Of a stretch of 64,000 bases of DNA, positions 12,370 through 31,547 are shown piece after piece. The translations under genes and the position numbers were made by a program. The stretch covers positions 717 through 64,716 of the forward strand of contig VGIW01000007.1 in assembly GCA_016867715.1 (NCBI GenBank). Direction: 5' to 3'. Positions within the stretch are counted from its first letter, which is position 1. Every line of letters starts with the position of its first letter. The stretch comes from Candidatus Eiseniibacteriota bacterium. Lineage in GTDB: Bacteria; Orphanbacterota; Orphanbacteria; Orphanbacterales; Orphanbacteraceae. A model generated the notes under the pieces. That model worked only from the letters and a program-made list of their open reading frames with translations, ran no database searches and was not told the origin of the DNA.

Positions 12370-13289
12370 TTCGTTCGCCGGTCGAGCGCGGCGGCCCCGC
12401 GCCTCACGAGAACGCCCACCATCTCGCGCCGATACGCGGCGGTTCCCCGAAGATCGGTGATCGGGCGGCACGCCTCGCGCGCGATCTCGGCCGCCCGAGG
12501 CGCGGCGGCGGCTCCGTTTCGGTCGAGACAGGCCTCCGCCTCGGGAACGCGGAGCGGCGTCGGCGCGACCGAGGCGAGCGCCACGCGATGGCGTCCCGGA
12601 TCTTCTCCGTTCGAGCGCGCGACGAGCACGCCGACGGTCGCGAGGTCCATGCCGCGCCGGCGCGACAAACGGAAGTAGGCTCCGCGCCATCCCGACGCCG
12701 CGAGAGGGAGAACGACCTCCGTGACGAGCTCGCCCGGAAGGAGGGAGGTCTCGCCGGGTCCCGTGAAGAAATCCGCGATCCGGATCGCGCGCGATCCGGA
12801 CGGTCCGCACGCCGCCGCTTCCGCGTCCAAGGCGAGGAGGGCGACCGCCGTGTCCGCCGCCGGCGAGGCGTTGCAGATGTTCCCGATCATCGTCGCTCGG
12901 CTCCGGAGAGGCCGCGCGCCCACCCGCGTGCAGCATTCGGCGAGCAAAGGATACCGTTCGCGGACGATCGGATGCTCGGCGATCGCCGCGAGGGGAACCG
13001 CCGCCCCGATCGAAAGGTCTCCGTTCGTTCTCTCGCGGATCGCGGAGAGATCGTCGATCCTCTTGATGTCGATGAGAAGCCTCGGCGCGCGCTTCCCGAT
13101 CCTCATCTGCGTGAGGAGGTCGGTTCCTCCCGCGAGATAGGCGGCGCCGGGGCTCTCCCCCCACCGGGAGACCGCCTCTTCGACGGTCCTGGCGGCCGCG
13201 TATTCGAATCGGGAGAGAAGCACGGCGAATCCCCTACGGGCTCGGATCGAAAAGTTGAAGTCCGTAACAATCGCGTCTGACGAGCTCAC
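12366..13289 (-). CDS. Molybdenum hydroxylase FAD-binding medium subunit (CoxM/XdhA-like). The ORF-track start at 13289 is a GTG; an alternative GTG at 13223, preceded by AGGGGA, is more likely.
   Basis: AYLAGGTDLL FAD motif, and CO-dehydrogenase-flavoprotein C-terminal region. The 13289 start would overlap the DUF35 gene by 55 nt. Confidence 0.85.
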   Translation of the reverse strand: MSSSDAIVTDFNFSIRARRGFAVLLSRFEYAAARTVEEAVSRWGESPGAAYLAGGTDLLTQMRIGKRAPRLLIDIKRIDDLSAIRERTNGDLSIGAAVPLAAIAEHPIVRERYPLLAECCTRVGARPLRSRATMIGNICNASPAADTAVALLALDAEAAACGPSGSRAIRIADFFTGPGETSLLPGELVTEVVLPLAASGWRGAYFRLSRRRGMDLATVGVLVARSNGEDPGRHRVALASVAPTPLRVPEAEACLDRNGAAAAPRAAEIAREACRPITDLRGTAAYRREMVGVLVRRGAAALDRRTK

Positions 13290-15607: not shown

Positions 15608-17812
15608 CTACCGCCGGACGCGAATAGAGACCGAGTCCCGGCCCTTCCATTCGGTTTCGAGAGTCCCCTCGTCGAGGAGAAGCCGGACGAACGTCTTCCT
15701 CTGCGGCTCTTTCCAGTACCCGTCGACGATGCGCGAGGCGAGGCGCACGACGCCCCGCGTCTCTCTCGCCTCGAACTCGGTGATCCGAAACGCTCCTTTC
15801 CGGTACTCGAGGCTTTCTCCGTCGTCCTCGTAGAGGGTCCCCTTCGCGCGCCCTTCGGCGTCCAGCCGGACGAGGAGCGTGAGCGGATCGAGCGGCTTCT
15901 CTCCGGTGTGCTGCATGACGGGACCGATCGGGACGATCGCCCCGCCGCGAATGTAGAGCTCCGGAAGATCGGGATCCTCTTCGCCCGCGGTCTCTTCCCA
16001 CGGGATCTTCTTCCAGTCGCCGATCGGCATCACGGGCACGCGGTCGCGCTTCGGGGTCGTCCGCGCCGAGACGAGAAGGTCCGCTCCGAGAAGGAACGCG
16101 TCGTCCTCGGATCGAAGATCCGGGTCGGAAGGGTCGGCGAAGAAGAGGGGTCTCGCGACCGGAAGCCCGGTGAGCGATGTCTCGCGGAAGACGGTGTAGA
16201 GATACGGCATCAAGCGGTAGCGGCGCTCGATCGCCCGCCGGCACGTCGCCTCGGTTTCCGGCCCGAACGACCACGGCTCCTTATCGATGTTCCCCTTCGC
16301 GGTGTGTCCCCTCGCGAACGGAAAGAGCGCGCCGATCCCCATCCATCGCGCGAAGAGCGCGGCGTCCCCCGCTTCGGCGAAGCCGCCGATATCCGGCCCG
16401 CTGAACGGCTGGCCGGAGAGCCCGAGGTTCAAGACGTTCGGGATCGAGACGTCCAAGTGGTACCAAGTCGCCAGGTTGTCGCCGCTCCACGCCGCCGCGT
16501 AACGCTGTCCGCCGAGATGGTTCGCGCGTGAAAGAACGAACGGCCGCTTGTCGGGGCGCGCGAGAAGAGCGCCCTCCCGGGTTGCGCGCGCCATCAGCAT
16601 GCCGTACGCGTTGTGATAGCGCGCGTGCGTGTCCGCTCCGCCGAGCGCCTCGTCCGCCCGGTGGATGTTCGAGAGGGGCATCGTCTTGTCCCACACGTCG
16701 AAGACCGCCGGCTCGTTCATGTCGACCCAAACCCCCCCGATCCCTCGCGCGAGGAAGTCCGCGACGAGATTCGCCCACCAGTCGCGCGCCGCGGGAAGCG
16801 TGAAGTCGGGGAAGACGCATTCGCCCGGCCAGACCCGCCCCGTGTACGGGCTTCCGTCCGCGCTCTCCACCCAGAGATTCCTCTCGCTTCCCGTGTCGTA
16901 CACGCCATACCCGTCTTCCTTCTTGATGCCCGGATCGAGAATCCAGACGGTGTGAAAGCCCCGCGTGCGCAGGTCCTCGTTCAGGCCGAGCGGATCCGGG
17001 AAGCGGGTCGGATGAAACGTGAAGGATCGAAAGCCGTCCATGTAGTCGATATCGAGCCAGACCACATCGCACGGGATTTCCTTCTCACGAAACGCGCGCG
17101 CGATCTCCCGCACGCGCTCATCCGGAAAATACGAATAGCGGCATTGGTGGTAGCCGAGCGCCCAGAGCGGGGGAAGCGGCATGTGTCCGGTGAGATCGGC
17201 GAGCGCGCGCACGACCTCGTCCGGGGATTCGCGGTCGATCGCGAGCACCGCGAACGGCGGACCTTCGGTGATGAAGAGGATGTCCCCCGCGAGGTCGAGA
17301 TGGCTCCGGTAGGTCGTTTCGAAGAGGAGCCCGAACGCGGTTCCGTCCGCGCGGACCGCGAGCACCCAAGGATGCGATTGATAGAGATGAGGGGTTTCGT
17401 CTCCCCATCCGAACGCGTCGTGATTCCAGAGCGTCGTTCTCCGCCCGTTTCGGAGAAGCGGTCCCGGGACCAAGCCGGTCCCATACAGGCTCGTTCCCTC
17501 GTCGATCCTCACGCGGACGCCGTTCCGATTGTGAAGATTCTCGAACCGCGGCCGCACCGGGAAGTCCGCAGGCGCGGGCTGGATCTCCGCGAGCGGTTCC
17601 CGGAGCGCGATCGACGGCGCGGCGCCCGCCCGCGCTTCCTCCGATTCGTGGAAGCGGACGATTCGTTCTCCGACGAGATAGGCCGCCGGGTCGGCGAGCG
17701 CCTCGGACCCGATCGCGAGCGCGAGAATCACGAAGAGGAATCGCAGGGCGAACCTCGGCGCGATCGATTCGGAGCTTCTTTGTTTCTTCCTTCTCATCGT
17801 TGGTCCGCTCAC
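15608..17812 (-). CDS. Glycoside hydrolase family 31 alpha-glucosidase, secreted
   Basis: 734 aa. Signal peptide ...FLFVILALAIGSEALA. GH31 signature blocks are VWLDIDYMDGFRSFTF and GIGGVWVDMNEPA (catalytic Asp), plus WSGDNLATW. Confidence 0.9.
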   Translation of the reverse strand: MSGPTMRRKKQRSSESIAPRFALRFLFVILALAIGSEALADPAAYLVGERIVRFHESEEARAGAAPSIALREPLAEIQPAPADFPVRPRFENLHNRNGVRVRIDEGTSLYGTGLVPGPLLRNGRRTTLWNHDAFGWGDETPHLYQSHPWVLAVRADGTAFGLLFETTYRSHLDLAGDILFITEGPPFAVLAIDRESPDEVVRALADLTGHMPLPPLWALGYHQCRYSYFPDERVREIARAFREKEIPCDVVWLDIDYMDGFRSFTFHPTRFPDPLGLNEDLRTRGFHTVWILDPGIKKEDGYGVYDTGSERNLWVESADGSPYTGRVWPGECVFPDFTLPAARDWWANLVADFLARGIGGVWVDMNEPAVFDVWDKTMPLSNIHRADEALGGADTHARYHNAYGMLMARATREGALLARPDKRPFVLSRANHLGGQRYAAAWSGDNLATWYHLDVSIPNVLNLGLSGQPFSGPDIGGFAEAGDAALFARWMGIGALFPFARGHTAKGNIDKEPWSFGPETEATCRRAIERRYRLMPYLYTVFRETSLTGLPVARPLFFADPSDPDLRSEDDAFLLGADLLVSARTTPKRDRVPVMPIGDWKKIPWEETAGEEDPDLPELYIRGGAIVPIGPVMQHTGEKPLDPLTLLVRLDAEGRAKGTLYEDDGESLEYRKGAFRITEFEARETRGVVRLASRIVDGYWKEPQRKTFVRLLLDEGTLETEWKGRDSVSIRVRR

Positions 17813-17987
17813 CCCTCAGGATCGAGCGCGGCTCCTCGTTCGTCGAAAGGCCCCCGCTCGATCGGTTCGACCCATTGTAACCGAGGAGCGTCTCCGACCC
17901 TCCCGCGAAAAGGGGAGCCGCTCGGCCGGCCGTCCGAGCGGTATCTCCGGATCGCGTTGTGCCGCAATGGATTAAGAGGTCTAAAAA

Positions 17988-18000
17988 GGCGGTTTCCGCC
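17988..18000 (-). terminator. Small GC hairpin followed by a T5 tract when read on the minus strand (intrinsic-terminator-like)
   Basis: Plus-strand AAAAAGGCGGTTTCCGCC; the minus-strand reading is GGCGGAAACCGCC followed by TTTTT. There is no minus-strand gene immediately upstream, so see the findings. Confidence 0.3.
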
Positions 18001-18012
18001 TTCCCGAAGCGG

Positions 18013-18041
18013 TTCTCCCCCGGGCGTCTCTCCGGTATACT
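18013..18041 (+). promoter_or_regulatory. Candidate promoter (TTCTCC, 17 nt spacer, TATACT) for the transketolase-family gene
   Basis: Seen by eye about 50 nt upstream of the RBS AAGGAG and ATG at 18089. Confidence 0.25.
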
Positions 18042-18088
18042 CGTTCCCGAATCGGGCGAGGGTCTTCCAGCCAGCCAAGGAGTCGAAC

Positions 18089-20440
18089 ATGGCGTTTGAA
18101 TTGGGACCGAGGCGCGGGATCGTTGTCGCAATCGCCGGCGAGATAAAAAAGGCGGACCCCCCGCTTTCGGATGAAGACGCGGAGCACTTCGAGACATTCG
18201 ACCTCATCTATCGATCGCTTTGCGCGCTCTTGTACAACTACGTCCCGATGTCGGGACATCCGGGCGGATCGATCTCATCCGGCCCGTTCGTTCAATCGCT
18301 TCTCTTCGATGCGATGGACTACGACCTCTCCGATCCGGACCGCGTGGACGCGGATCTCATCTCCTACGCGGCGGGGCACAAGGCGCTCGGTCTCTACGCG
18401 ATGTGGGCCCTTCGCAACGAGGTGGCCCGGATCGGCGCCCCGGAGCTTCTCCCGAAGGACGAGAGGAAACAGCTTCGTCTCGAGGATCTCCTCGGTTTCC
18501 GGAGAAACCCGGTCACCGACACCCCATTGTTCAAAAAGTTCAGCTCCAAACCACTCGACGGGCATCCTACTCCGGCGACCCCGTTCCTCCGTCTCTCGAC
18601 GGGAGCGTCGGGGGTCGGCGTGGCGACGTCCCTCGGGCTCGCGTATGGGGCGAAGGACTACTACGGCGCCGCGGCACCGCGCGTCCACATCGTCGAAGGA
18701 GAGGGAGGAATGACGCCGGGGCGCGTGGCGGAGGCGCTCGCGGCGGCCGGCACCGCTTCTCTCGACAACGTCTTTCTTCATGTCGACTGGAACCAAGCCT
18801 CGATCGACACGAACCGTGTCTGCCGCGAGGGTACGACGCCGGGCGACTACGTGCAGTGGGATCCGATCGAGCTTCTCCATCTGCACGATTGGAACGTCGT
18901 TCGCGTCGAGGAGGGGAGGGACTTCCGCCGTGTTCTCGCCGCGCAGCGGAAAGCGCTTTCGATCGACAACGGACAACCGACGGCGATCGTCTATCGAACG
19001 GTGAAGGGTTGGAACTACGGCATCACGGGACGCGCCTCGCACGGAGCGGGACACAAGCTCTGCTCCGACGGGTTCTACGAGGCGCTCGATCAGATCCGTC
19101 CGGTGATCGAGCCGAAGCTTCCGCGCTGCTGCGAGGGGGAGCTGCGCTGCAACGGTCCCGACGGCCGCGCGGTGATGGAGGAGTGCTTCTGGGAGGCGCT
19201 CGAGCTCATCCGGAGAGCATTGGAGACCAATCGAGAGACGGTCGACTTCCTCGCAGGCCGCCTGGTCGAGGCGCGGGAGCGCTTGAACCGCCTCGGGAGA
19301 CAGCCGCGCAAGGACGCTCCGAGCGTCGAGAAGATCTATCGGATCGCCTCCGAGTCGGCGGCGAGAGTCCCGGCGGAGCTCGCGCTGAAGCCGGGCGCGT
19401 CGACGACCCTTCGCAACGAGCTCGGACGCGCGCTCGGCTACTATAATAAGGAGAGCGGCGGCGCCCTCTTCGCGGCCGCGGCGGACCTTCTCGGTTCCAC
19501 CAGCATCAATCTCGTGAACGACGGCTTCCCCGACGGCTACTATCACTCGAAGATGAACCCGGACGCCCGTTTGCTTTCGATCGGCGGGATCTGCGAGGAC
19601 GCGATGTCCGGGATTCTCGCGGGTCTCTCCACGTACGGGCGGCATATCGGGGTCGGCTCTTCTTACGGCGCGTTCCTCGCGCCTCTTGGGCACATCTCGG
19701 CGAGGCTGCACGCGATCGGGAACCAGGCGCGGCGCGAGCTTTCCAAGGAGCCGCACAAGCCGATGGTTCTCGTCTGCGCCCACGCCGGGTTGAAGACCGG
19801 CGAGGACGGCCCCACGCACGCGGATCCGCAGGCGCTCCAGCTCCTTCAGGAGAACTTCCCCGCGGGAACCGTCGTCACGCTGACGCCTTGGGATTCGGCG
19901 GAGGTCTGGCCGCTTCTTGCCGCCGCGCTCGCGAAACGGCCGGCGGTGATCGCGCCGTTCGTGACGCGTCCGAACGAGATCGTTCCCGACCGCGCGGCGC
20001 TCCGTCTCGCCCCGGCCGAGGAGGCGGCGAAGGGGGTGTACCGTCTCCGCGCAGCGAAAGGCAAAGCGGACGGAACGGTGGTGTTGCAGGAGAGCGGGGT
20101 CGCATGCGCGTTCGTCGAGGGGGCGCTTCCTCTCCTTGACAAGGAAGGAATCGATCTCGACGTCTACTACGTCGCGAGCGCCGAGCTCTTCGACATGCTT
20201 CCGAGAGAGGAGCGCGAGAGGACCTTTCCCGAGGAGCGCGCGAGCCGTGCGATGGGGATCACCGGCTTCACGCTTCCGACGCTCTACCGCTGGGTCGTGT
20301 CGGAGCGCGGGAGGAAGCACAGCATGCATCCGTTCCAGAAGGGGCATTTCCTCGGGAGCGGGCAGGCGGACATGGTGCTCAAGGAGGCGGGACTCGACGG
20401 GAGGAGCCAATTCGAGGCGATCCGGCGTTTCGTCGCCTAG
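18089..20440 (+). CDS. Transketolase-family thiamine-diphosphate enzyme (long form, about 783 aa)
   Basis: The real start is MAFELGPRRG... with RBS AAGGAG. The ORF-track 5' extension is antisense junk over the GH31 gene. Transketolase N-terminal ThDP motifs are GHPGGSISSGPFV and the DRVDADLISYAAGHKALGLY block. The GDG-like Mg/ThDP site is VEGEGGMTPGRVAEALAAAG...NVFLHVDWN. Confidence 0.75.
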   Translation: MAFELGPRRGIVVAIAGEIKKADPPLSDEDAEHFETFDLIYRSLCALLYNYVPMSGHPGGSISSGPFVQSLLFDAMDYDLSDPDRVDADLISYAAGHKALGLYAMWALRNEVARIGAPELLPKDERKQLRLEDLLGFRRNPVTDTPLFKKFSSKPLDGHPTPATPFLRLSTGASGVGVATSLGLAYGAKDYYGAAAPRVHIVEGEGGMTPGRVAEALAAAGTASLDNVFLHVDWNQASIDTNRVCREGTTPGDYVQWDPIELLHLHDWNVVRVEEGRDFRRVLAAQRKALSIDNGQPTAIVYRTVKGWNYGITGRASHGAGHKLCSDGFYEALDQIRPVIEPKLPRCCEGELRCNGPDGRAVMEECFWEALELIRRALETNRETVDFLAGRLVEARERLNRLGRQPRKDAPSVEKIYRIASESAARVPAELALKPGASTTLRNELGRALGYYNKESGGALFAAAADLLGSTSINLVNDGFPDGYYHSKMNPDARLLSIGGICEDAMSGILAGLSTYGRHIGVGSSYGAFLAPLGHISARLHAIGNQARRELSKEPHKPMVLVCAHAGLKTGEDGPTHADPQALQLLQENFPAGTVVTLTPWDSAEVWPLLAAALAKRPAVIAPFVTRPNEIVPDRAALRLAPAEEAAKGVYRLRAAKGKADGTVVLQESGVACAFVEGALPLLDKEGIDLDVYYVASAELFDMLPREERERTFPEERASRAMGITGFTLPTLYRWVVSERGRKHSMHPFQKGHFLGSGQADMVLKEAGLDGRSQFEAIRRFVA

Positions 20441-20506
20441 CGCTCTTCGGTAGTTCGTTCGTGTGTGAACGATCGGTTTTCGGTTCAGGGCGGAGGGTGC
20501 GGATCC

Positions 20507-23500
20507 ATGAGCGTGGAACTTCGGGAACACGAATCGGCGCTGGCGGCGATCGTCTCCTGGGGGGCGATGGAGCCTCTCCCTCAAGAGATGTCGGTCCGCC
20601 TTCTTCGGGCGGCCGAGGAGCTCGTCGCGTCCGGCGGGGCCGGCGCGGTCGATCCCGTCTTCTGGCACGAGTATCTCGACCGGACGCGCCGTTCGTTCTT
20701 CCTTCGAAGCTTGCCCGACCGCGCGCACCGCGTGCGTTGGGCGGAAACGGCCGCGACGGCGATCGAGATCTCGGGCTACACGCTCGAGATGCTTCTCGAG
20801 CAGCGCCTTCGCGCGCACCCGGATCGGCCGCTCCTGCAAGAGGGGGCGGCCGGCGAGCCGAGACGCTGGAGCTACTCCCAGGTCGCTCGGCGCGCGCGCG
20901 CCTTCGCCGCTGCCTTTCTCCAAGTCGCGGACGGCTCGCCGCGCGTCGCGATCCTCTCGGAGAACTGTGTGGAGGGAGCCTGCGCGGATCTCGCGTGTCT
21001 TATCCACGACATCCTCGTCGCGCCTCTCGATCCGCACTTGAGCGCGGAGACGATCGCTTGGGTCTTCAACGAACTCCGCATCAACCTCGTCGTCACGGAC
21101 TCGGACGAACGGCGAGCGCGCCTCCAGGAAATCCGCTCGTCGGTTCGCGAACCGTACACGATCCTTCTGCTCGACAGCGAGGCGAAGCCGGCGGATCCGC
21201 GGGAGGCGGTTCTCGAGGACCTCGCCTCGCGCCTCTCGCGCGAGACAATCGATCGCCTGCTCGACGCGCGAAAGCGTCTCGGTCCGCGTGAAGCGGCGAC
21301 CGTCATGTTCACCTCCGGATCGACCGGCATGCCGAAGGGAGTCGTCTTCAGCCGGCTCAACCTACTTTCCAAGCGGTTCGCGCGCGCTGCGGCCCTTCCG
21401 GCCGTCGGCGAGGAGGAGGTGCTCTTCTGCTACCTCCCGCTCTTCCACACGTTCGGCCGCTTCCTCGAGCTGATGGGGATGCTCTTCTGGGGAGGGACGT
21501 ACGTCTTCGCAGGAAACCCGTCGAAGGAAACTCTTCTCGCCGGCCTTCGAGAGGTCCGCCCGAGCGGGCTCATCGGGATTCCGCGGCGATGGATGCAGAT
21601 TCGCGAACGCGTGCTGGAGATCGCCGGAGATCGCTCGCCCACGGTCGAGGATTTTCACGAGGTCGTGGGCGACCGGCTCCGATGGGGCCTCTCCGCCGCG
21701 GGTTTCCTCGATCCGAAGGTCTTTCACTTCTTCCAGAGGATGGGCGTCGAGCTCTGCAGCGGCTTCGGCATGACCGAGGGGACCGGCGGGCTCACGATGA
21801 CGCCGCCCGGAGAGTACGAGGACAACACGGTCGGCATTCCGCTCCCTCTCGTCGAGGCGCGCCTCAGCGAGGAAGGGGAGCTCCAGGTCGCCGGACCGTA
21901 CATCGCCGCGTATCTCGACGAGCCCCCTCCCGCGCCCGGCGAGAAGAGATGGCTCCGGACCGGCGACATCTTCCGCGAGCGTCCGAGCGGCTATCTCGAG
22001 ATCGTCGATCGCATCAAGGACATCTACAAGAACAGCCGCGGGCAAACGGTCGCGCCTCGGCGGGTCGAGTCGAAGTTCACGGATGTCCCCGGAATCAAGA
22101 ACACGTTTCTCGTGGGGGACGGACGCGATTTCAACGCGCTCCTCATCGTTCCCGACGAGGAAGACCCGGTTCTCCGCGCCATTCCCGATCCGGAGAATCG
22201 CCGCGAGTATTTCGATCAGATCGTGACCGCCGCGAATCGAGATCTCGCGACGTACGAGCGCGTGGTGAACTTCGCCGTGATTGAACGCGATTTCGATCAG
22301 GAGCACGGCGAGCTGACCCCAAAGCGATCATTCAAACGTAAAACGATTGAAGCGAACTTCGCCGGCGTGATTCACGAGCTGTACAGGAGCGACTCGGTTC
22401 TTCTCGAGGCGGGGGGCGTGAGAGCGCGGATCCCGCGCTGGTTCTACCGGGATCTCGGGATTCTCGAGACCGATATCGTCGCGGTGAGCACGGGGCTCGT
22501 GAACCGGGTGAGCCGGATGGCGCTGCCGCTCGCCGCGCCGGAGGGATCTCCCGGCGTTCTGGTGGGCGATCTCGAGTACGTCGTCCCGGAAGGCCCGATC
22601 GACCTCGGTCTCTTCGCGCGGCAGCCGGCGCTCTGGATCGGCAATCCTTCCCTCGTCGCCTTCTCGCCGTGCAAGGAGGGATGGGATCTTTCCCTCGGCG
22701 ATGTCTCTCCGCAGGTCCTTCTCCCGATTCGGCGCGCGGAGGAAGCGAGGGAGGACCCGGCGCGAGATCTGCCCGCGACCGGAGGACGCAGGCTTGCGGA
22801 GATCAACCGGCTCTCAGTGCTCGCGCTCTATGCGAAGCCGAAGGAGTCGATCGAAGCGCTGCGCCGGCTCGGCGAGGCTCTCGGATCGGTCGATCTTCGC
22901 GTTGGAAGCGTGATTCGAAGACGCATCGAGGCGCTCGCTCGCCATCCGGACTTTGAGGTTCGGTGTCTCGCGTATCGCACTCTGCTTCTCGACGAGCCGA
23001 TGCCGGACTACGGAGAATTGCTCCCGTCGTTCGTCCTCTCCGGTCTCCCGTTCCTGAACGAGGAGAGCATGGAGGAGATCGCGCGCGCGAACATCGAGCG
23101 CCGCCGGCTCGAGGCGCTTCGCATGCGCTTCCTCAGCTACCGGAATCAGCTCGGGTGGCCGGCGACGCCCGCGGTGCGCGCGCAGTTCGAGGTGTTCTTC
23201 ACGCTGCTCGCCAATTTCGCGCGCTACCACCCCGAGTACTACGCGGCGGTTCGGTCGGAGCTCGTCACCTGGATCCAGCACAAGAGCGATCCGGATCTCG
23301 CCCGTTCCGCGGAGCTCGTGTTCATGCAGCTCGCCGACTGGCATCAGAGGAAGCTCGCTGTCGAGGCCAGGGACGAGGGTCCGGAGGAGTGGAAAGGGAA
23401 GATCGTTCTCGAGGACGGGCTTTCGGCATCCGAGGTGAAGCACATCGAGACCGTTCTCGTGGGGACGACCTTTCTCAAGGAATCGGTGGCGCTCGCGTTC

Positions 23501-25084
23501 GACGCGGAGGCCTTCGACGTCCGGGAGGTGCCGCCGGACGGGATCTGGATCTCCCGCGTGCATTCGCTTCACGACCACCGTCTCTATCGGGTGAGCATCA
23601 ACACGGTCAACGACAAACACTACGACCTCCTGCTCCTGCTCCGCCCGGATCTCGACATGTCGATCGTTCATGACACAAACTTCTGGATGATCGCGATTCG
23701 CGGTTATCCGGAGGGCACCCCGGCCGTGCCGCGCTTCGGCATCTGCCGGCCGGAGCTCGGCGCGATCTCTCTCGCGTTCGTGAGCGATCTCACCGTATGG
23801 GAGCGGATCCGCGAGGCCGCCGATTCCTCGGAATTCCAATCCGTGTGCGGGACCTGGCGGAGCCTCTTCGTCCGCGGCATGGCGGCGTTCTTCCTCGGAT
23901 GGCGAAACAGCGGCCGCAGGATCGTGCCCGGAGCCGTGAATCCGAAGAACGTGGCGGTCTCTGAGCCGGACTTCCGCGAGGGCGCTGTGGTCCTTTCTCT
24001 CGCGGGATGGAAGCCCTATCGGAGTCCGGTCGATCTCGTCGGCCCCATGCTGCGCAACTTCTTCCGGCAGATCGAGCACCACTATCCGCGCTGCCGCCAA
24101 GGGCTCGACATCGGCTGGATCTTCGATGCGTGCGTCGAGGGGCTCGGGCAGGAAGAGGGACGGCGATTCCTCGAGGATTTGCGGTCGCGGATCGGTATCG
24201 AGGAGCTTCCGGGGGACGCGAAAAGGCTCGCGCGGTCGCTCGACGATTTTCTCGATCGCGTGCGCCGCGAATACCATCTTCCAGTCCCGCTCCGATGCGC
24301 GATCGATCGCTACGGCGAGTGGGAACGAGCCGATCCGGAAGCGACTTGGAGCGCGAAGCACCAGATCGTTCGCGAGCTGTTCCGTCTCTATCGGCTTTCT
24401 CGTTTCGGGGCGCTCGCCCGCTACACGCTCTACCGCCGCACGGTCTTCGCCTCGGCGCCGCCCGACGTGATCGAGCCCTTCGATCGGCTGCTCGGGCGCA
24501 TGTTCCGCAATCCATCCGAGCGCCCGACGCGGATGGTCGAGCTATCCGATCTGCAGGCGTCCGTCGCGGGGGACGGGGAGCAGAGAGCGGTCTTCAGCGG
24601 GCTCGTCTTCCCGCAGGCGCGGGCGGCCGTCGAGGTCGTCGCGGTGGGCGATCTCGACCGGAAGCACGTCATCGTGCGGTCGGAGCTGATCGACGAGAGA
24701 GGGGAGAAGTACACGGTGCGCGAGCCGGTCGAGCCGGCGGAGATCGGACAGCTGGTCGGTCTGATCATCCAAGGGGGCTTCCCGAACATCGTTTCGAAGA
24801 ACGACAGGTACCTCGTCGCGATCGACGGACAGGAGCGGGTCGTCGGAGGAGTCTTCTACAAGCTGCACGATCCGAAGGTCGCGCATCTCGACGGGATCGT
24901 CGTCGCCGCGTCCCTCCGGAGGCGCGGGATCAGCGGAGCTCTTCTCGAGGATTTCTGCTCCCGCATGGCGGGCCAAGGGATCGAGGTCGTCACGACCCAC
25001 TACTTCGCGCGGCGCTTCTACCTCGCGCACGGCTTCCATGTGGACAAGGCATGGGGAGGGCTCGTTCGATTGCTTAATACATAA
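20507..25084 (+). CDS. Giant multidomain protein: N-terminal long-chain fatty-acid-CoA ligase (AMP-forming), about 700 aa of unknown function, and a C-terminal GNAT N-acyltransferase domain
   Basis: 1525 aa from MSVELREHE... with RBS GGAGGG. The ORF-track GTG 42 nt upstream is less likely. AMP-binding motifs are TSGSTGMPKGV and GFGMTEGTGG, with a FACS-type linker. The C-terminal roughly 150 aa (HLDGIVVAASLRRRGISGALLEDFCSRMAGQGIEVVTTHYFARRFYLAHGF) is a GNAT fold. Confidence 0.85.
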   Translation: MSVELREHESALAAIVSWGAMEPLPQEMSVRLLRAAEELVASGGAGAVDPVFWHEYLDRTRRSFFLRSLPDRAHRVRWAETAATAIEISGYTLEMLLEQRLRAHPDRPLLQEGAAGEPRRWSYSQVARRARAFAAAFLQVADGSPRVAILSENCVEGACADLACLIHDILVAPLDPHLSAETIAWVFNELRINLVVTDSDERRARLQEIRSSVREPYTILLLDSEAKPADPREAVLEDLASRLSRETIDRLLDARKRLGPREAATVMFTSGSTGMPKGVVFSRLNLLSKRFARAAALPAVGEEEVLFCYLPLFHTFGRFLELMGMLFWGGTYVFAGNPSKETLLAGLREVRPSGLIGIPRRWMQIRERVLEIAGDRSPTVEDFHEVVGDRLRWGLSAAGFLDPKVFHFFQRMGVELCSGFGMTEGTGGLTMTPPGEYEDNTVGIPLPLVEARLSEEGELQVAGPYIAAYLDEPPPAPGEKRWLRTGDIFRERPSGYLEIVDRIKDIYKNSRGQTVAPRRVESKFTDVPGIKNTFLVGDGRDFNALLIVPDEEDPVLRAIPDPENRREYFDQIVTAANRDLATYERVVNFAVIERDFDQEHGELTPKRSFKRKTIEANFAGVIHELYRSDSVLLEAGGVRARIPRWFYRDLGILETDIVAVSTGLVNRVSRMALPLAAPEGSPGVLVGDLEYVVPEGPIDLGLFARQPALWIGNPSLVAFSPCKEGWDLSLGDVSPQVLLPIRRAEEAREDPARDLPATGGRRLAEINRLSVLALYAKPKESIEALRRLGEALGSVDLRVGSVIRRRIEALARHPDFEVRCLAYRTLLLDEPMPDYGELLPSFVLSGLPFLNEESMEEIARANIERRRLEALRMRFLSYRNQLGWPATPAVRAQFEVFFTLLANFARYHPEYYAAVRSELVTWIQHKSDPDLARSAELVFMQLADWHQRKLAVEARDEGPEEWKGKIVLEDGLSASEVKHIETVLVGTTFLKESVALAFDAEAFDVREVPPDGIWISRVHSLHDHRLYRVSINTVNDKHYDLLLLLRPDLDMSIVHDTNFWMIAIRGYPEGTPAVPRFGICRPELGAISLAFVSDLTVWERIREAADSSEFQSVCGTWRSLFVRGMAAFFLGWRNSGRRIVPGAVNPKNVAVSEPDFREGAVVLSLAGWKPYRSPVDLVGPMLRNFFRQIEHHYPRCRQGLDIGWIFDACVEGLGQEEGRRFLEDLRSRIGIEELPGDAKRLARSLDDFLDRVRREYHLPVPLRCAIDRYGEWERADPEATWSAKHQIVRELFRLYRLSRFGALARYTLYRRTVFASAPPDVIEPFDRLLGRMFRNPSERPTRMVELSDLQASVAGDGEQRAVFSGLVFPQARAAVEVVAVGDLDRKHVIVRSELIDERGEKYTVREPVEPAEIGQLVGLIIQGGFPNIVSKNDRYLVAIDGQERVVGGVFYKLHDPKVAHLDGIVVAASLRRRGISGALLEDFCSRMAGQGIEVVTTHYFARRFYLAHGFHVDKAWGGLVRLLNT

Positions 25085-25223
25085 ACATGTCCCGGCGGAA
25101 ACGGCCGCCTCGCGACCGGAAGGCGCATGCCGGCGCGGCCCGAGTACAACCGCAAGATCCGAGAGCATCATCAGCCGCGGTCGGCGCGGACAGCGACTCG
25201 AAACCGACCGCAAGGAGGTCCGG

Positions 25224-27191
25224 ATGCGTCATCTCGCGTGGATACTGCTTCTCTCCTTCTCTCCCGCGCTCGCCGCCATCGATCCGCCGTCCGTTCTCGA
25301 TCCTGAGGAAGCGATCGCCCTCCTCGCGGGCGCGGACGCCTCCCGGTACGCGGGGAACGACCGCGTGGTCGTCTTCGATCGGACGGAGGTCGACGTCGAG
25401 GAGACCGGTCTTTCCCATCGCTACGACCACCGTCTCGTGAAGGTGCTGGATTGGTCCGGCGCGCGCGCCCAGGCAACGCTCCGCTTCGACTACGATCCGG
25501 CGTCGAACATCGTCGAGATTCTCGCGGTGCGCATCCACCGCGCCGACTCGACCATCGTGGACATCGATCCGGCCTCCGTCGTCGACGCCACCGCACCCGC
25601 GCACCTCATCTATTGGGGCGGCCGCATGAGGGTGCTCGGAGTCGGCGCGCTCGAGCCGGGCGACGGGGTCGAGACGATCACCTACAAGAAAGGGTTCCAG
25701 ATCGCCTATCTCGACGCGGAGACCGAGGACGAGCGCTATATCCCTCCGATGCGCGGCCACTTCTACGAGGTCCTTCTCTTCCAGGAAGGTCTTCCCCTGA
25801 TCGAGAAGTCGTACACCGTTCATCTCCCGAAGGACAAGCCGCTCCAGTACTCGGTCTACAACGGCGAGGTGATGAGCAGTCTCACCTTCGGCGAGGATGC
25901 GCACATCTACCGCTTCTGGAGGGCAAACGTCCCCGCGCTGAAGCGCGAGCCGGGCATGCCGGACGTCTCGGACGTCGTCCCGAAAGTGGTGATGGCGACC
26001 GTGCCCGATTGGGAGGAGAAAAGCCGCTGGTTCTACGCCGTGAACGAGGATCGCGATATCTTCGGCTGGAACCTCGAGATCGAAGAAAAGGTGAACGAGA
26101 TCACCCGCGGCTTGAAGACCGAGGACGAGAAGATCGCCGCACTCCTTCACTGGGTCGCGCAGAACATCCGTTATAGCGGCCTCAACATGGGAGAAGGAGA
26201 GGGGTACACGCTCCACCCGAGCACGATGACATTCCGCGACCGTTGCGGCGTGTGCAAGGACATCGCCGGAATGCTGGTCACGATGCTTCGCGTGGCCGGC
26301 TACCCGACGTTCGCGGCGATGACGATGGCGGGCTCGCGCGTCGAGAAGATTCCCGCGGACCAGTTCAACCACTGCGTGGTCGCTCTCCGGAAGGAGGACG
26401 GTTCGTATCTGATGCTCGATCCGACGTGGGCTCCGTGGAACAATCCGATTTGGAGCCGCTGGGAGGGCGAGCAGCACTACGTCATCGGATCTCCGGAAGG
26501 AGAGGATCTGATGATGATCCCCGCCTTCGCGCCCGAGGACAACCTCCTCGCCATCCGGAGCGAAGCGAAGATCCTGAAAGACGGCGCGCTCGAAGGAACC
26601 CTCGTTCTCGACGGGAAGGGGGCCCTGGACGGACGCATCCGGAACGCCGCGGCCGACCGAGCGAAGCGGAATGTCCGCTTGGGAATCGAGGAGTGGCTCG
26701 GCGCGGTTTCTCCCGACATCGAGCTGATCGAGTATCGCTTCACCGATCCGCGCGACTTCACGATCGACTCCTCGCTTAGGATCCGCTACCGGGTCCCGCG
26801 GTTCGCCGACCTTCTCGGAGACGATCTCGTCTTCCGCTCCCCCGCGCTCCGTTTCATCGCGGAGAACGCGAGGCTCTCGAGATTGGCGTTCCTGCCGGAC
26901 AACGAGGAGCGCACGCACGGTGCGTTCCTGTGGGGCCCGCAGAGGATCGCGATCGACGAGACGGTGAACCTTCCCTCCGGCTACAAAGCCGAGGAACCGG
27001 AAGGGACTTCCGTCGAGGAGAAGATCGCGGCCGCCAAGCTGAGCTGGGAAGCGAAGGGCGGCGCGCTCGTCCTGAAGGGTGAAACGGTGATCGAGAAACG
27101 CCAGCTCACCGCCGAGGAGTATGCCGGCGCTCGAAAGGCCCGAAACGCCGTCGTGGATGCATCGAACAACGAACTCTATGCCAAGCGATAG
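25224..27191 (+). CDS. Secreted DUF3857 + transglutaminase-like (Cys-His-Asp papain-fold) domain protein
   Basis: Real start MRHLAWILLLSFSPALAA (signal peptide) with RBS AAGGAGG. The TGase core is RCGVCKDIAGMLVTMLRVAGYPT...HCVVAL...D. Confidence 0.8.
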   Translation: MRHLAWILLLSFSPALAAIDPPSVLDPEEAIALLAGADASRYAGNDRVVVFDRTEVDVEETGLSHRYDHRLVKVLDWSGARAQATLRFDYDPASNIVEILAVRIHRADSTIVDIDPASVVDATAPAHLIYWGGRMRVLGVGALEPGDGVETITYKKGFQIAYLDAETEDERYIPPMRGHFYEVLLFQEGLPLIEKSYTVHLPKDKPLQYSVYNGEVMSSLTFGEDAHIYRFWRANVPALKREPGMPDVSDVVPKVVMATVPDWEEKSRWFYAVNEDRDIFGWNLEIEEKVNEITRGLKTEDEKIAALLHWVAQNIRYSGLNMGEGEGYTLHPSTMTFRDRCGVCKDIAGMLVTMLRVAGYPTFAAMTMAGSRVEKIPADQFNHCVVALRKEDGSYLMLDPTWAPWNNPIWSRWEGEQHYVIGSPEGEDLMMIPAFAPEDNLLAIRSEAKILKDGALEGTLVLDGKGALDGRIRNAAADRAKRNVRLGIEEWLGAVSPDIELIEYRFTDPRDFTIDSSLRIRYRVPRFADLLGDDLVFRSPALRFIAENARLSRLAFLPDNEERTHGAFLWGPQRIAIDETVNLPSGYKAEEPEGTSVEEKIAAAKLSWEAKGGALVLKGETVIEKRQLTAEEYAGARKARNAVVDASNNELYAKR

Positions 27192-30046: not shown

Positions 30047-31420
30047 CTACCCGTCCTTTCTTTCCTGGTCCGCCGGACGGACCTCGAGAACCAAACCGTC
30101 CACCTTTTCGATGACGATCCTCGTTCCGGCCGCAACCGGCCGATCCGACACGGCCGACCAGTGCGCGCCCGCGACGAACACGGTCCCCTTCGGCGCGATC
30201 TCGGTGCGGGCGACGCCGATCTCCCCGACGAGGCCGCGCCGCCCGGTCGTCGGCTTCTTCCGCCTCGTCCGGAAGGCCATCGCGAGGGCGAAGACGAAGA
30301 ACGCGACGGTCACCGCCACCGCCGGGAGAACCACCGCGAGCGAAACGCGCAGGAACGGAGCCGGAGAGCGGAAGAGGAGAACCGACCCCAAGACGAGGGC
30401 CGCGACACCGCCCGCGGTCAGCACTCCAAAGCTCGGGGTGAACAGCTCCGCCACGAAGAAACCGACGCCGAGAATCATGAGAAGAAGCCCCGTGTAGTTG
30501 ATGGAGAAACTTTTTAGCGCGAAGAGAGCGAGCACCAGACAGATCGCTCCGACCACGCCCGGGAAGACCGTTCCAGGAGAGGAGATCTCGAAGAACAAAC
30601 CGTAGAAACCGAGAAGGAGGAGGATGTAGGCGACCGTGGGATCGTTCAGAAAGGCGAGGAAGCGATAGCGCCGGCTCATCGAGAACTCCTCGACGTCGGG
30701 GTCCCGCAGCGAGAGCACGAGGGCTTCGCCCTCCGAATCGCGGACCTCCATGCCGTCGAGCTTCTCGAAGAGCTCCGCGCGGCTCGCGGCGACGCAATCG
30801 GCGATTCCGATCGCGACCGCCTCGTTCGCCGGGGTCGATTCGCTCGCGCGCACCGCTCGCTCCGCCCATTCCGGGTCGCGGCCCTTCTCCTCGGCGATGC
30901 TCCGGAGATACGCCACCGCGTCGTTCGTCGCCTTGTCGGAGAGGGTGGAGTCCATTTGGGCGCCGCCGATGTTCACCGGATGCGCGGCTCCGATGTTCGT
31001 TCCGGGGGCCATCGCGACGGCGTGCGCGGCCATCGCGATGAAGGCGCCGGCCGAGGCCGCTCTCGATCCGCTCGGGGAAACATAGACGATGACCGGAACC
31101 TCGCTCGAGAGAATCCGCTTCACGATGTCGCGCATCGCCGTGTCGAGCCCGCCCGGCGTGTCGAGCTCGATCACGACGGCGTCCGCGGAGCGCTTCTCGG
31201 CTTCGTCGATCGCGTCGACGAGAAAGCTCGAAGCGACGGTTCCGATCACGCCCTGGAACGGAACCCAAAGCACCCGCGGCGGGCGGCCGGAGGGAGAAGC
31301 CGCGTCGGTGAGGGAATCGTCCTCCGAGGGAACGCCCGGGAGGGGAAGAAGAACGAGCCCCGCGAGAAACAGAATCGCGCACGCGGCGGCGCGGGCGGAC
31401 CGGTTCGTCAAGAACTGCAT
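30047..31420 (-). CDS. NfeD-family membrane-bound ClpP-class serine protease (stomatin operon partner)
   Basis: Start [23 protein letters not shown]. ClpP-like periplasmic domain [18 protein letters not shown]...[12 protein letters not shown]-terminal multi-TM region plus an OB-fold tail. It sits immediately upstream of the SPFH gene. Confidence 0.85.
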
Positions 31421-31547
31421 GCGTCCTTCTCGCTTTCCGTCGGTCGATCCGCTCTCCATAGTAATCCTCGGCCGGACGTGCCGCAAGAAGCGAGATCGGG
31501 ACCGTCTTCGGGGCTCCCGCGCCTCGCCCGAATCCTCGAACGCCGTC

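What the first reader, a model, noticed from the sequence alone, without database searches (positions are those of the whole stretch)
20507..25084. 1525-aa fusion of a long-chain fatty-acid-CoA ligase, a roughly 700-aa unknown region and a C-terminal GNAT acyltransferase
The N-terminal 620 aa carry all core AMP-binding motifs of long-chain acyl-CoA synthetases (TSGSTGMPKGV, GFGMTEGTGG, the FACS linker). The last roughly 150 aa form a GNAT fold. I cannot assign the middle roughly 700 aa to any family.

GNAT enzymes that N-acylate amino acids or lipids normally depend on separately supplied acyl-CoA or acyl-ACP. Examples are N-acyl amino acid synthases, OlsB and bacterial ceramide synthase.

A covalent fusion of the activating enzyme with a GNAT suggests a self-contained N-acyl amino acid, lipoamino acid or other acyl-amide synthase. 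I do not recognise this architecture as characterised.
Basis: partly seen in the sequence, partly recalled or inferred. Interest (0 to 1): 0.55.

Follow-up and report, generated by a model that had tools for sequence, protein, structure and literature searches.

The report
Acyl-CoA synthetase–pseudokinase–GCN5 acetyltransferase fusion protein
This is a real, widespread and uncharacterised 1525-residue bacterial protein that joins an acyl-activating enzyme, a hidden inactive-looking kinase-like module and a histone-acetyltransferase-like domain, and it looks more like a regulator at the acyl-CoA node than a lipid-making enzyme.

Summary
Window 20507-25084 (+) is one intact 1525-aa ORF with an AMP-binding (ANL) domain at aa 97-628 and a C-terminal GNAT at aa ~1373-1525.

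The unassigned middle now resolves by structure prediction into three parts:
- a small beta-rich domain (aa 630-760);
- a HEAT-like helical domain (aa 761-954);
- a protein-kinase-like (PKL) domain (aa 955-1372).

The PKL domain is invisible to sequence profiles. It lacks the canonical kinase Lys, HRD-Asp and DFG-Asp, so it is probably a pseudokinase.

The GNAT is specifically GCN5-like. It is not of the OlsB / N-acyl-amino-acid-synthase type.

The middle module occurs only in this three-part architecture. The architecture is found in at least 473 species across about ten phyla, including a clade only ~25% identical. I found no publication describing it.

There are no lipid genes, carrier domain or membrane segments. 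In Bacteroidota the gene sits among citrate synthase, aconitase and isocitrate dehydrogenase genes.

My best reading (about 0.4) is an acyl-CoA synthetase with a built-in GCN5-type protein acyltransferase and a pseudokinase scaffold or sensor. The function is untested.

The parts
20507..25084 (+). Complete ORF, 1525 aa plus stop (TAA 25082-25084).
   Evidence: About 100% identical to P0001, and same length as P0002 at 83% identity.
20492..20496 (+). Shine-Dalgarno GGAGG, 10 nt before the ATG at 20507.
   Evidence: Read directly from the sequence.
20455..20472 (+). Terminator-like hairpin with a T-rich tail in the 66-nt gap after the upstream gene. It suggests the ORF has its own transcription start.
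   Evidence: This is a consensus match only, and the number of such sites in the region is not above shuffled expectation.
20507..20794 (+). N-terminal extension, aa 1-96. Family-specific, with no known domain.
   Evidence: No Pfam hit. It is the least conserved part: 0.29 identity within the main clade and 0.17 between clades.
20795..22006 (+). ANL (AMP-binding) N-terminal subdomain, aa 97-500. It carries motifs A3 (TSGSTGMPKG), A5 (GFGMTEGTGG) and A7 (TGD).
   Evidence: Pfam PF00501 at 2.2e-58. Motifs at least 90% conserved. 79 positions are conserved across both clades.
22007..22393 (+). ANL C-terminal (mobile) subdomain, aa 501-629, with A8 (DRIKDIYK). It is the most conserved segment of the whole protein.
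   Evidence: PF23562 at 5.4e-11. Identity is 0.55 within the main clade and 0.44 between clades.
22310..22342 (+). A10 loop, E602-L-T-P-K606-R-S608-F-K-R611-K612. The canonical A10 lysine register is occupied by Ser/Thr, and an invariant Lys lies two residues upstream.
   Evidence: The HMMER alignment to CAR adenylation domains puts S608 on their Lys. K606 is 116/116, S/T608 is 116/116 and R611 is 116/116. The pattern is the same in the distant clade.
22394..22786 (+). Small beta-rich domain plus loop, aa 630-760.
   Evidence: AF2 model of aa 601-1525 has seven strands at aa 630-691, with block pLDDT mostly 78-94 over aa 631-760. No Pfam hit.
22787..23368 (+). All-helical, HEAT-like repeat domain, aa 761-954.
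   Evidence: AF2 helices at aa 761-953. A HEAT_2 Pfam hit falls at the equivalent place in the distant homologue P0222. Together with the next domain it draws Foldseek hits to PI3K/PIKK helical-plus-kinase structures.
23369..24622 (+). Protein-kinase-like (PKL) domain, aa 955-1372. The bilobal core is aa ~1010-1170 and a helical C-terminal extension follows.
   Evidence: AF2 model has pLDDT 92.3 and pTM 0.90. Foldseek against PDB gives 92 hits at E<=1e-3. All 50 listed are kinase-fold proteins; the best is Bud32/PRPK at TM 0.60-0.65, and JAK2 JH2 is among them. There is no sequence-level hit to any kinase.
23927..23998 (+). Degenerate 'catalytic loop to DFG' stretch of the PKL domain, aa 1141-1164 (PGAVNPKNVAVSEPDFREGAVVLS).
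   Evidence: Column counts in 116 homologues: the HRD-Asp position 1143 is A/P/T (Asp 6/116), N1148 is 115/116, and the DFG-Asp position is S1164 (105/116). There is no beta3 Lys.
24623..25081 (+). GCN5-type GNAT domain, aa 1373-1525.
   Evidence: Pfam Acetyltransf_1, _7 and _10 are above their cut-offs. The family profile against PDB gives tGCN5 at 2.5e-9. Foldseek gives GCN5 at TM 0.59 and Ard1 at 0.65.
24917..24934 (+). GNAT motif A (acyl-CoA pyrophosphate-binding loop), R1471-R-R-G1474-I-S1476. The family consensus is R/K-G-R-G-L-G/S/A.
   Evidence: G1474 is 114/116. The loop aligns to QVRGYG of tGCN5.

Best explanation
The protein is a cytosolic, single-polypeptide regulatory enzyme that acts at the acyl-CoA node. 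Only the domain anatomy is shown; the reaction steps below are inferred.

1. The N-terminal ANL domain adenylates a carboxylic acid and makes its CoA thioester. The chain length of that acid is unknown.
2. The C-terminal GCN5-type GNAT spends an acyl-CoA (acetyl-CoA or the product made next door) on an amino group of a protein rather than a lipid or free amino acid. The target is either the enzyme's own mobile ANL C-subdomain, which would give product-dependent feedback like a covalent version of the Acs-Pat / AcsA-AcuA pair, or other metabolic enzymes.
3. The beta domain, HEAT-like domain and pseudokinase module hold the GNAT in a fixed position. This module probably acts as a scaffold or ligand sensor, in the role that the large non-catalytic domain plays in Salmonella Pat or the cAMP-binding domain plays in mycobacterial Pat.
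For: Shown:
- Intact ANL core motifs.
- Intact GNAT motif A.
- The GNAT is specifically GCN5-like. The family profile against PDB gives tGCN5 at 2.5e-9 with 'IVGGICYR' aligned to 'VIGGICFR'. Structural neighbours are GCN5, Ard1/Naa and RimI, all protein acetyltransferases.
- The PKL fold is confident, but the kinase catalytic residues are missing family-wide. This fits a sensor or scaffold.
- The 925-residue C-terminal part is predicted as one compact body (pTM 0.83).
- The middle module exists only in this architecture: 307 representatives among 1.84 billion proteins, always starting near residue 620-710 in the long proteins, which is directly behind the ANL domain in the members whose domains were checked. 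The distant clade has the same order.
- The ANL domain, and above all its mobile C-subdomain, is the most constrained part (0.44 identity between clades against 0.18-0.26 for the rest). This is what one expects if the synthetase is the core activity and the rest is accessory.
- No TM segments, no carrier domain, no defence-system match.
- The only recurrent neighbours are citrate synthase, aconitase and isocitrate dehydrogenase, in Bacteroidota/Ignavibacteria-type loci. These enzymes sit around acetyl-CoA entry into the TCA cycle.

From established knowledge:
- AMP-forming acyl-CoA synthetases are the paradigm substrates of bacterial GNAT lysine acetyltransferases.
- AcuA and AcsA form a stable complex (abstract of PMC11255334, listed).
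- Salmonella Pat is a multidomain GNAT (PMC3195501, listed).
Against: - No experiment exists for any member.
- The Pat recognition motif PX4GK is absent. The residue in the canonical A10 lysine register is Ser/Thr, so if there is a target it must be the shifted K606.
- The GCN5 catalytic Glu position is His, Tyr or Gln here.
- None of the solved GNATs matched by the family profile at E<=1 is labelled as a bacterial Pat or AcuA.
- No deacetylase gene is a recurrent neighbour.
- The TCA synteny is restricted to some clades and is absent from this window.
- The AF2 model did not place the A10 loop anywhere (pLDDT below 50 for model residues 1-7).
- GNAT sequence or fold similarity is a poor predictor of the acceptor.
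Confidence: 0.4

Rival explanations
1. One reading: a self-contained acyl-amide synthase. The ANL domain activates a (long-chain) fatty acid to acyl-CoA. The fused GNAT then transfers that acyl group to a free amino acid, a polyamine or a lipid head-group amine, giving an N-acyl amino acid, lipoamino acid or N-acyl lipid. The pseudokinase module would bind the acceptor.
For: - The fusion is obligate and ancient, with both catalytic motif sets conserved.
- The best, though sub-threshold, NCBIfam labels for the ANL domain are long-chain FACS / FadD11.
- One homologue's locus has an LPG_synthase_TM gene 30 nt upstream.
- Known precedents couple an ANL enzyme to an acyltransferase: Aas, and MbtM/MbtL/MbtK (own knowledge).
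Against: - The GNAT shows no hit to the OlsB/NAS-type Pfam family at E<=1. It is instead GCN5-like.
- There is no carrier domain and no membrane anchor.
- No lipid or amino-acid-lipid genes are conserved nearby.
- The chain length of the ANL substrate is not established.
Confidence: 0.2
2. A pure allosteric appendage. Neither the PKL module nor the GNAT is catalytic. They would be ligand sensors (acyl-CoA on the GNAT, a nucleotide or metabolite on the pseudokinase) that gate the domain rotation of the ANL enzyme. The protein would then simply be a heavily regulated acyl-CoA synthetase.
For: - The ANL domain is far more conserved than the rest.
- The PKL domain lacks kinase catalytic residues.
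- The GCN5 catalytic Glu is not conserved.
- The ANL C-subdomain, which must rotate during catalysis, is the best-conserved segment and is directly tethered to the module.
Against: - GNAT motif A and the GGIC(Y/F)R strand are kept even in the ~25%-identical clade. This is more than a mere CoA-binding fold would need.
- Many active GNATs lack a Glu general base (own knowledge).
Confidence: 0.15
3. A three-activity pathway enzyme. The PKL domain would have a non-canonical active site (R1028, D1040, N1148, D1155, S1164) and carry out a chemical step of its own, such as phosphoryl or nucleotidyl transfer or ATP hydrolysis, on the same substrate that the ANL and GNAT domains handle.
For: - A distinct set of polar residues is nearly invariant in the main clade.
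- R1028, D1155 and S1164 persist in the distant clade, where half the sequences have Asp at the HRD position.
- The top structural neighbours are Bud32/PRPK, atypical kinases that act as ATPases (their function is from own knowledge).
Against: - No beta3 Lys and no DFG Asp in either clade.
- The module is the least conserved part between clades (0.18-0.22 identity).
- No sequence similarity to any kinase family.
Confidence: 0.1

Closest known systems
Type I bacterial protein lysine acetyltransferase Pat/YfiQ/PatZ, and the AcsA-AcuA complex
   Same: - A GCN5-like GNAT of ~150 aa sits at the C-terminus of a very large, apparently non-catalytic module.
- The functional partner is an AMP-forming acyl-CoA synthetase.
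- The enzyme is cytosolic and tied to acetyl-CoA and central carbon metabolism.
   Different: - Pat's large domain is an NDP-forming acyl-CoA-synthetase-like fold. Here it is a beta domain, a HEAT-like domain and a pseudokinase.
- Here the AMP-forming synthetase is covalently fused.
- The PX4GK acetylation motif is absent and the canonical A10 Lys is replaced by Ser/Thr.
- None of the solved GNATs matched by the family profile at E<=1 is labelled Pat or AcuA.
Eukaryotic GCN5/PCAF histone acetyltransferase catalytic domain
   Same: - It is the best sequence and structural match of the GNAT.
- The motif D strand 'GGIC(F/Y)R' is shared.
- Motif A is shared.
   Different: - The catalytic Glu (Glu122 of tGCN5) is mostly His here.
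- The N-terminal half of the fold is atypical, with an extra beta-hairpin and a single helix before beta2.
- There is no bromodomain or chromatin context.
Long-chain acyl-CoA synthetases of the FadD11/ACSL type and carboxylic-acid-reductase adenylation domains
   Same: - The ANL fold, the A3/A5/A7/A8 motifs and the AMP-binding_C_3 type C-subdomain.
   Different: - All curated family models score far below their cut-offs.
- The A10 lysine is displaced by two residues.
- There is a 96-aa N-terminal extension and a 900-aa C-terminal extension.
Atypical or minimal protein-kinase-like proteins (Bud32/PRPK, RIO) and pseudokinases (JAK2 JH2); PI3K/PIKK helical-plus-kinase layout
   Same: - A bilobal PKL fold with TM 0.60-0.65 to Bud32.
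- A helical repeat domain immediately N-terminal of the kinase-like domain, as in VPS34, PI3K and PIKK.
- The catalytic-loop Asn is kept.
   Different: - No beta3 Lys, no HRD/DRH Asp and no DFG Asp.
- No Pfam kinase hit.
- Global TM to PI3K structures is only 0.2-0.3.
- The domain is fused between an ANL enzyme and a GNAT.
Aas (acyl-ACP synthetase / lysophospholipid acyltransferase); FadD33-MbtL-MbtK; N-acyl amino acid synthases / OlsB
   Same: - The concept of coupling fatty-acid activation to an acyltransferase.
   Different: - Aas uses a PlsC-type acyltransferase and is membrane-bound.
- MbtK and NAS need a carrier protein.
- OlsB/NAS belong to a different GNAT-like family that is not matched here.

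Membership tests
ANL superfamily (AMP-forming acyl-CoA synthetase) | Pfam AMP-binding domain above the gathering score, with a C-terminal subdomain. | tested here: met
   PF00501 at 198.3 bits against 29.9; PF23562 at 43.4 against 20.8.
ANL superfamily (AMP-forming acyl-CoA synthetase) | Core motifs A3 (T/SSGTTGxPKG), A5 (GxTE), A7 (TGD) and A8 (DRxKD). | tested here: met
   At least 90% conserved in 116 homologues and conserved in both clades.
ANL superfamily (AMP-forming acyl-CoA synthetase) | Catalytic A10 lysine in the canonical register. | tested here: not met
   S608 (Ser/Thr in 116/116) aligns with the Lys of CAR adenylation domains. An invariant K606 lies two residues upstream and may substitute for it.
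Long-chain fatty-acid-CoA ligase (NCBIfam equivalogs / FadD11) | Score above the curated family cut-off. | tested here: not met
   Best hit is PRK06187 at 151.6 bits against 476; FadD11 scores 136.3 against 950.
GNAT superfamily | Pfam GNAT model above the gathering score, GNAT fold, and motif A Q/R-x-x-G-x-G/A. | tested here: met
   Acetyltransf_1 at 35.7 against 20.7, Acetyltransf_7 at 34 against 27, Acetyltransf_10 at 24.7 against 23.6. Foldseek TM 0.59-0.68 to solved GNATs. Motif A is conserved.
GCN5/PCAF-type acetyltransferase | Specific sequence similarity to the HAT core, and the catalytic Glu in beta4. | tested here: inconclusive
   The profile hits tGCN5 at E 2.5e-9, well ahead of all other GNATs. 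However, the position aligned to Glu122 is His 79, Tyr 16, Gln 9 of 116.
N-acyl amino acid synthase / OlsB-type N-acyltransferase (Pfam Acetyltransf_5; assignment of that Pfam family from own knowledge) | A match to the family model. | tested here: not met
   Not among the Pfam hits at E<=1. No such structure is among the profile hits against PDB.
Carrier-protein-dependent acyl transfer (NRPS/FAAL-like) | A PP-binding (ACP/PCP) domain in the protein or next to it. | tested here: not met
   No PP-binding hit. No ACP gene recurs in the neighbourhoods.
Protein-kinase-like superfamily | A bilobal PKL fold. | tested here: met
   Model pLDDT 92.3. Foldseek gives 92 PDB hits at E<=1e-3, and all 50 listed are kinase-fold proteins.
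Protein-kinase-like superfamily (active kinases) | Beta3 Lys, catalytic-loop Asp (HRD/DRH, five residues before the Asn) and DFG Asp. | tested here: not met
   There is no beta3 Lys. Position 1143 is A/P/T (Asp 6/116). The DFG position is Ser 105/116. Only the Asn is kept.
PI3K/PI4K/PIKK kinases | A PI3_PI4_kinase domain with DRHxxN and DFG motifs, preceded by a helical domain. | tested here: not met
   The helical-plus-kinase layout draws Foldseek hits (E 5e-5), but TM is only 0.2-0.3. The PKL core on its own matches Bud32 and eukaryotic protein kinases, not PI3K. There is no Pfam hit and the motifs are absent.
Type I Pat/YfiQ protein acetyltransferase | An N-terminal NDP-forming acyl-CoA-synthetase-like domain plus a C-terminal GNAT, with acetylation of the A10 Lys of AMP-forming synthetases. 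| tested here: not met
   No Pfam match to an NDP-forming CoA-ligase domain. The large domain is HEAT-like plus PKL. Acetylation activity cannot be tested with these tools.
Anti-phage defence systems (PADLOC) | A match to any defence-protein model. | tested here: not met
   0 families at E<=0.01.

The most novel reading that the evidence does not exclude
The protein would be the first 'writer with its own fuel supply' in bacteria. It would be a single polypeptide that makes an acyl-CoA from a free acid (possibly a fatty acid) and immediately uses it, through a GCN5-type domain positioned by a pseudokinase scaffold, to acylate lysines on itself or on central-metabolic enzymes such as citrate synthase, aconitase or isocitrate dehydrogenase. 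This would link the availability of free carboxylic acids directly to protein acylation. In addition, its middle module would define a previously unrecognised, sequence-undetectable bacterial protein-kinase-like family.
Probability: 0.15. Interest if true: 0.85.

Novelty: new variant of a known kind. Interest (0 to 1): 0.6.

Why it matters
- Each of the three parts belongs to a well-known superfamily. Their obligate combination is undescribed, yet it is present in at least 473 species-level genomes from about ten phyla. Public databases annotate it only as 'GNAT family N-acetyltransferase' or 'long-chain acyl-CoA synthetase'.
- It hides a protein-kinase-like domain that no sequence profile detects.
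- If the regulatory reading is right, it is a new class of bacterial protein acyltransferase fused to its paradigm substrate class. It would give a direct handle on how acyl-CoA synthesis and protein acylation are coupled.
- Either way it is a clean, single-gene and soluble target for biochemistry. Cultivable carriers may exist, for example Draconibacterium orientale (seen here only in a MAG labelled as that species).

Tried and rejected
1. Sequence assignment of the middle region failed. Pfam at E<=1, NCBIfam, phmmer against PDB and a 41-sequence profile of the PKL region against PDB gave nothing meaningful. Only structure prediction worked.
2. PI3K/PIKK membership was suggested by the first Foldseek run. 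I rejected it as membership because the isolated core matches Bud32 and eukaryotic protein kinases instead and the motifs are absent. I keep it only as a resemblance in layout.
3. I checked whether stand-alone 'middle + GNAT' proteins of ~920-950 aa exist. Both cases examined are artefacts. One is three abutting same-strand ORFs on a long-read contig (L086). The other is a contig-end fragment (L087).
4. There is no universally conserved operon partner. Only clade-restricted TCA-gene synteny was found.
5. Defence-system membership: none.
6. Five literature searches found no description of this architecture.
7. The idea that the A10 loop docks into the GNAT could not be tested.
8. I did not attempt to infer the ANL substrate from the pocket, because all characterised relatives are too distant.
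Full report
**1. Observation**

The window has a 1539-codon open frame at 20465-25084 on the + strand. The ATG at 20507 is preceded by GGAGG at 20492-20496. It gives a 1525-aa protein that matches a database protein at ~100% (P0001, found on 4 contigs). An 83%-identical protein has exactly the same length.

Pfam finds these domains:
- AMP-binding at aa 97-460 (2.2e-58)
- AMP-binding_C_3 at aa 510-628 (5.4e-11)
- GNAT models at aa 1431-1513 (Acetyltransf_1 at 1.2e-08, above its cut-off)
- nothing between aa ~630 and 1430

No 19-residue window is hydrophobic enough for a membrane helix (maximum Kyte-Doolittle 1.55).

The fusion is not an assembly or frameshift artefact.

One correction applies. 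The label 'long-chain' rests only on sub-threshold NCBIfam hits (151.6 bits against a 476-bit cut-off). The nearest solved structures are carboxylic-acid-reductase adenylation domains at E ~4e-22. The acyl substrate is open.

**2. The middle region**

An AlphaFold2 model of aa 601-1525, built with 50 homologues, is confident (pLDDT 86.9, pTM 0.83). It shows four units:
- a small beta-rich domain at aa ~630-700, with a loop extending to aa 760
- an all-helical domain at aa 761-953
- an alpha/beta domain followed by helices at aa 960-1367
- the GNAT at aa 1375-1525

The high pTM for 925 residues means these pieces are predicted to pack as one body.

Foldseek against the PDB returned VPS34, PI3K-gamma, ATM, mTOR and ATR over 550-650 aligned columns (E down to 5e-5). 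The TM-scores were only 0.2-0.3.

I therefore modelled aa 955-1372 alone (pLDDT 92.3, pTM 0.90) and searched again. That gave 92 hits at E<=1e-3. All 50 listed are protein-kinase-fold proteins:
- Bud32/PRPK, the best, with TM normalised to the target of 0.60-0.65
- FGFR2, EphA2 and CK1
- the JAK2 JH2 pseudokinase
- an antibiotic phosphotransferase

So the middle is a HEAT-like helical domain followed by a protein-kinase-like (PKL) domain. A HEAT_2 Pfam hit appears at the equivalent place in a distant homologue. This layout recalls PI3K/PIKK, but the core itself is a minimal Bud32/RIO-like kinase fold.

The similarity is structural only. Neither Pfam nor a 41-sequence profile against PDB sequences sees any kinase.

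**3. Is the PKL domain a kinase?**

I counted columns in 116 full-length homologues, placing them on the model's secondary structure:
- The strand in the beta3 position reads K/R1037-H1038-Y-D1040-L-L-L, with no VAIK-type lysine.
- The catalytic-loop stretch is I-V-P-G-[A/P/T]-V-x-P-x-N1148. The Asn is kept (115/116). The residue five positions before it, which is the HRD/DRH aspartate, is A/P/T (Asp in 6/116).
- The residue after the beta8 strand, where the DFG aspartate sits, is Ser1164 (105/116).

A different polar set is almost invariant in the main clade: R1028, N1032, H1038, D1040, S1135, N1148, D1155 and R1157.

In the distant clade only R1028, D1155 and S1164 persist. Interestingly, half of those sequences have Asp at the HRD position.

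I conclude that the module descends from a kinase-like ancestor and is most probably a pseudokinase acting as scaffold or ligand sensor. A non-canonical activity is not excluded. The mapping of motifs onto strands is my inference from DSSP and spacing, not from a residue-level structural alignment.

**4. The GNAT**

Motif A is canonical. It reads R1471-R-R-G1474-I-S1476 in the window protein, and the family consensus is R/K-G-R-G-L-G/S/A (G1474 in 114/116).

A 41-sequence profile of the domain hits Tetrahymena GCN5 at E 2.5e-9. The next solved GNAT scores 1.8e-5. The alignment pairs the family's 'IVGGICYR' with GCN5 'VIGGICFR' and aligns motif A. The position aligned to the GCN5 catalytic Glu is His in 79 of 116, Tyr in 16 and Gln in 9.

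Structural neighbours are GCN5, Ard1/Naa, RimI and YhbS. No OlsB / N-acyl-amino-acid-synthase-type model is matched.

The domain therefore looks like a short-acyl, protein-directed GNAT. Fold and sequence similarity are only weak predictors of the acceptor.

**5. The ANL domain**

All core motifs are conserved, including in the distant clade.

One oddity stands out. HMMER alignments to three CAR adenylation domains place S608 on their A10 lysine (…G-L-L-T-G-I-R-K-L-A-R-P… against …G-E-L-T-P-K-R-S-F-K-R-K…). Position 608 is Ser or Thr in every homologue. K606, two residues upstream, and R611 are invariant. The identification of that CAR lysine as A10 rests on the general ANL pattern GK[ILV]xR[RK], which is my own knowledge.

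The mobile C-terminal subdomain is the best-conserved part of the whole protein. Its identity is 0.55 within the main clade and 0.44 between clades, against 0.18-0.26 for the middle and the GNAT.

**6. Distribution and architecture**

The phyla and groups include:
- Gemmatimonadota
- Fibrobacterota
- Zixibacteria
- Krumholzibacteriota
- NC10
- Ignavibacteria / Kapaibacteria
- Calditrichota
- Bacteroidales, including a MAG labelled Draconibacterium orientale and Prolixibacteraceae
- Acidobacteriota
- Polyangiaceae
- Riflebacteria
- some Gammaproteobacteria

The window's closest relatives are labelled Eisenbacteria or Gemmatimonadetes.

An exhaustive HMMER scan of 1.84 billion cluster representatives with aa 630-1372 found only 307 proteins at E<=1e-3. 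In every long one the module starts around residue 620-710, which in the members whose domains I checked is directly behind the ANL domain. A clade with only 21-29% identity (1475-1710 aa) has the same AMP-binding, middle and GNAT order.

Apparent 'middle + GNAT only' proteins are artefacts. The three parts thus form an obligate, ancient unit.

**7. Context**

In the window:
- The upstream gene is a transketolase-like protein ending at 20440, with a terminator-like hairpin at 20455-20472.
- The downstream gene is a secreted DUF3857/transglutaminase protein that really starts at 25221.

Across 85 loci no neighbour is universal. The only functionally coherent recurrence involves TCA-cycle genes:
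- In ten Bacteroidales-type loci, isocitrate dehydrogenase follows 43-204 nt downstream on the same strand.
- In eight of these ten, aconitase lies divergently ~90-180 nt upstream. In four of those eight, citrate synthase lies beyond the aconitase.
- Citrate synthase is also directly adjacent in several other loci (L013, L027, L064, L069).
- A further fragment has IDH downstream.

This points to the acetyl-CoA / TCA entry node rather than to lipid synthesis. It is clade-restricted and is not seen in this window.

**8. Interpretation**

I favour, at about 0.4, a regulatory enzyme: an acyl-CoA synthetase carrying a built-in GCN5-type protein acyltransferase, positioned by a HEAT/pseudokinase scaffold or sensor. 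It would act on itself (product-dependent feedback, a covalent analogue of Acs-Pat or AcsA-AcuA) or on other metabolic enzymes.

Points against this reading:
- The PX4GK motif is absent.
- The A10 lysine is displaced.
- The GCN5 glutamate is not conserved.
- No deacetylase is linked.
- There are no experimental data.

The rivals are:
- a purely allosteric appendage (~0.15)
- a non-canonical catalytic PKL domain (~0.1)

**9. Novelty**

Five literature searches found no description of this architecture. Databases give only generic names, and no curated family model reaches its cut-off.

I rate it a new variant of known kinds. The domains are familiar, but their combination is new and includes a kinase-like module that sequence methods cannot detect. 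Interest is 0.6.

Noticed in passing
Loci L057, L059, L062, L065, L067, L072, L074, L075, L078, L080 (Bacteroidales-type); L013, L023, L027, L047, L064, L069; L087: The big gene is embedded among TCA oxidative-branch genes. Isocitrate dehydrogenase lies 43-204 nt downstream on the same strand in ten loci. Aconitase lies divergently ~90-180 nt upstream in eight of them, with citrate synthase beyond it in four. Citrate synthase is also adjacent in non-Bacteroidales loci. This synteny is not present in this window.
   Followed up: partly
window 22310-22342 (aa 602-612): The residue in the canonical A10 catalytic-lysine register of the ANL domain is Ser/Thr in every homologue. An invariant Lys (K606) sits two residues upstream. 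This is unexplained. It could mean a shifted catalytic or acylatable lysine, or an altered adenylation mechanism.
   Followed up: partly
Proteins P0195-P0259 (distant clade, 1475-1710 aa): A second clade, only 21-29% identical in the middle module, keeps the same three-part architecture. Half of its members have Asp at the kinase HRD position that is A/P/T in the main clade. This hints that the ancestral module may have been an active kinase-like enzyme.
   Followed up: partly
window 25038-27191 (+): The downstream DUF3857 + transglutaminase-core ORF most likely starts at ATG 25221, not 25038. That ATG has an AAGGAGG ribosome-binding site and encodes the signal peptide MRHLAWILLLSFSPALAA. The gene therefore does not overlap the big gene and encodes a secreted protein.
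   Followed up: yes
window 15608-17812 (-) and 16613-20440 (+): A strong GH31 glycoside hydrolase on the minus strand (5.6e-118) overlaps the first ~400 codons of the 1275-aa plus-strand ORF. The transketolase-like domains of that ORF begin only at its residue ~624. The plus-strand gene must therefore start much later, around 17.9 kb. It scores far below the transketolase cut-offs, so it is an atypical ThDP enzyme.
   Followed up: partly
window 31089-33833 (+): This 914-aa ORF has a phosphomethylpyrimidine kinase (ThiD) domain only in its last 250 residues (aa 658-902). The first ~650 residues have no Pfam match. Either the ORF is over-extended or this is an unusual fusion.
   Followed up: no
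L086 4005-8772: In a 1.68-Mb contig with a 'contig_N' name (I take it to be a long-read assembly), the homologue is split into three abutting same-strand ORFs of 469, 186 and 923 aa. These are probably frameshift errors, so they are not evidence for a naturally split enzyme.
   Followed up: yes
L002 6769-7971: One homologue has an LPG_synthase_TM (MprF flippase-like) membrane protein gene 30 nt upstream on the same strand. This is the only lipid-related neighbour seen, and it does not recur.
   Followed up: partly
window 22775-22777 (aa 757): The window protein differs from the otherwise identical database protein P0001 at one residue: Ala757 in the window against Val in P0001. This is strain-level variation in a poorly conserved loop.
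   Followed up: no
window 1748-4660 (+); 7150-9477 (-); 9536-13164 (-); 13636-14814 (-); 36679-37977 (-): Other genes in the window:
- a subtilase with a type IX secretion sorting domain, which fits an FCB-group organism
- a CoA-ligase (succinyl-CoA-synthetase-like) domain protein
- a molybdenum hydroxylase with its 2Fe-2S subunit
- a thiolase
- an acetyl-CoA hydrolase/transferase

Several of these are acyl-CoA enzymes, but none is adjacent to the big gene.
   Followed up: no
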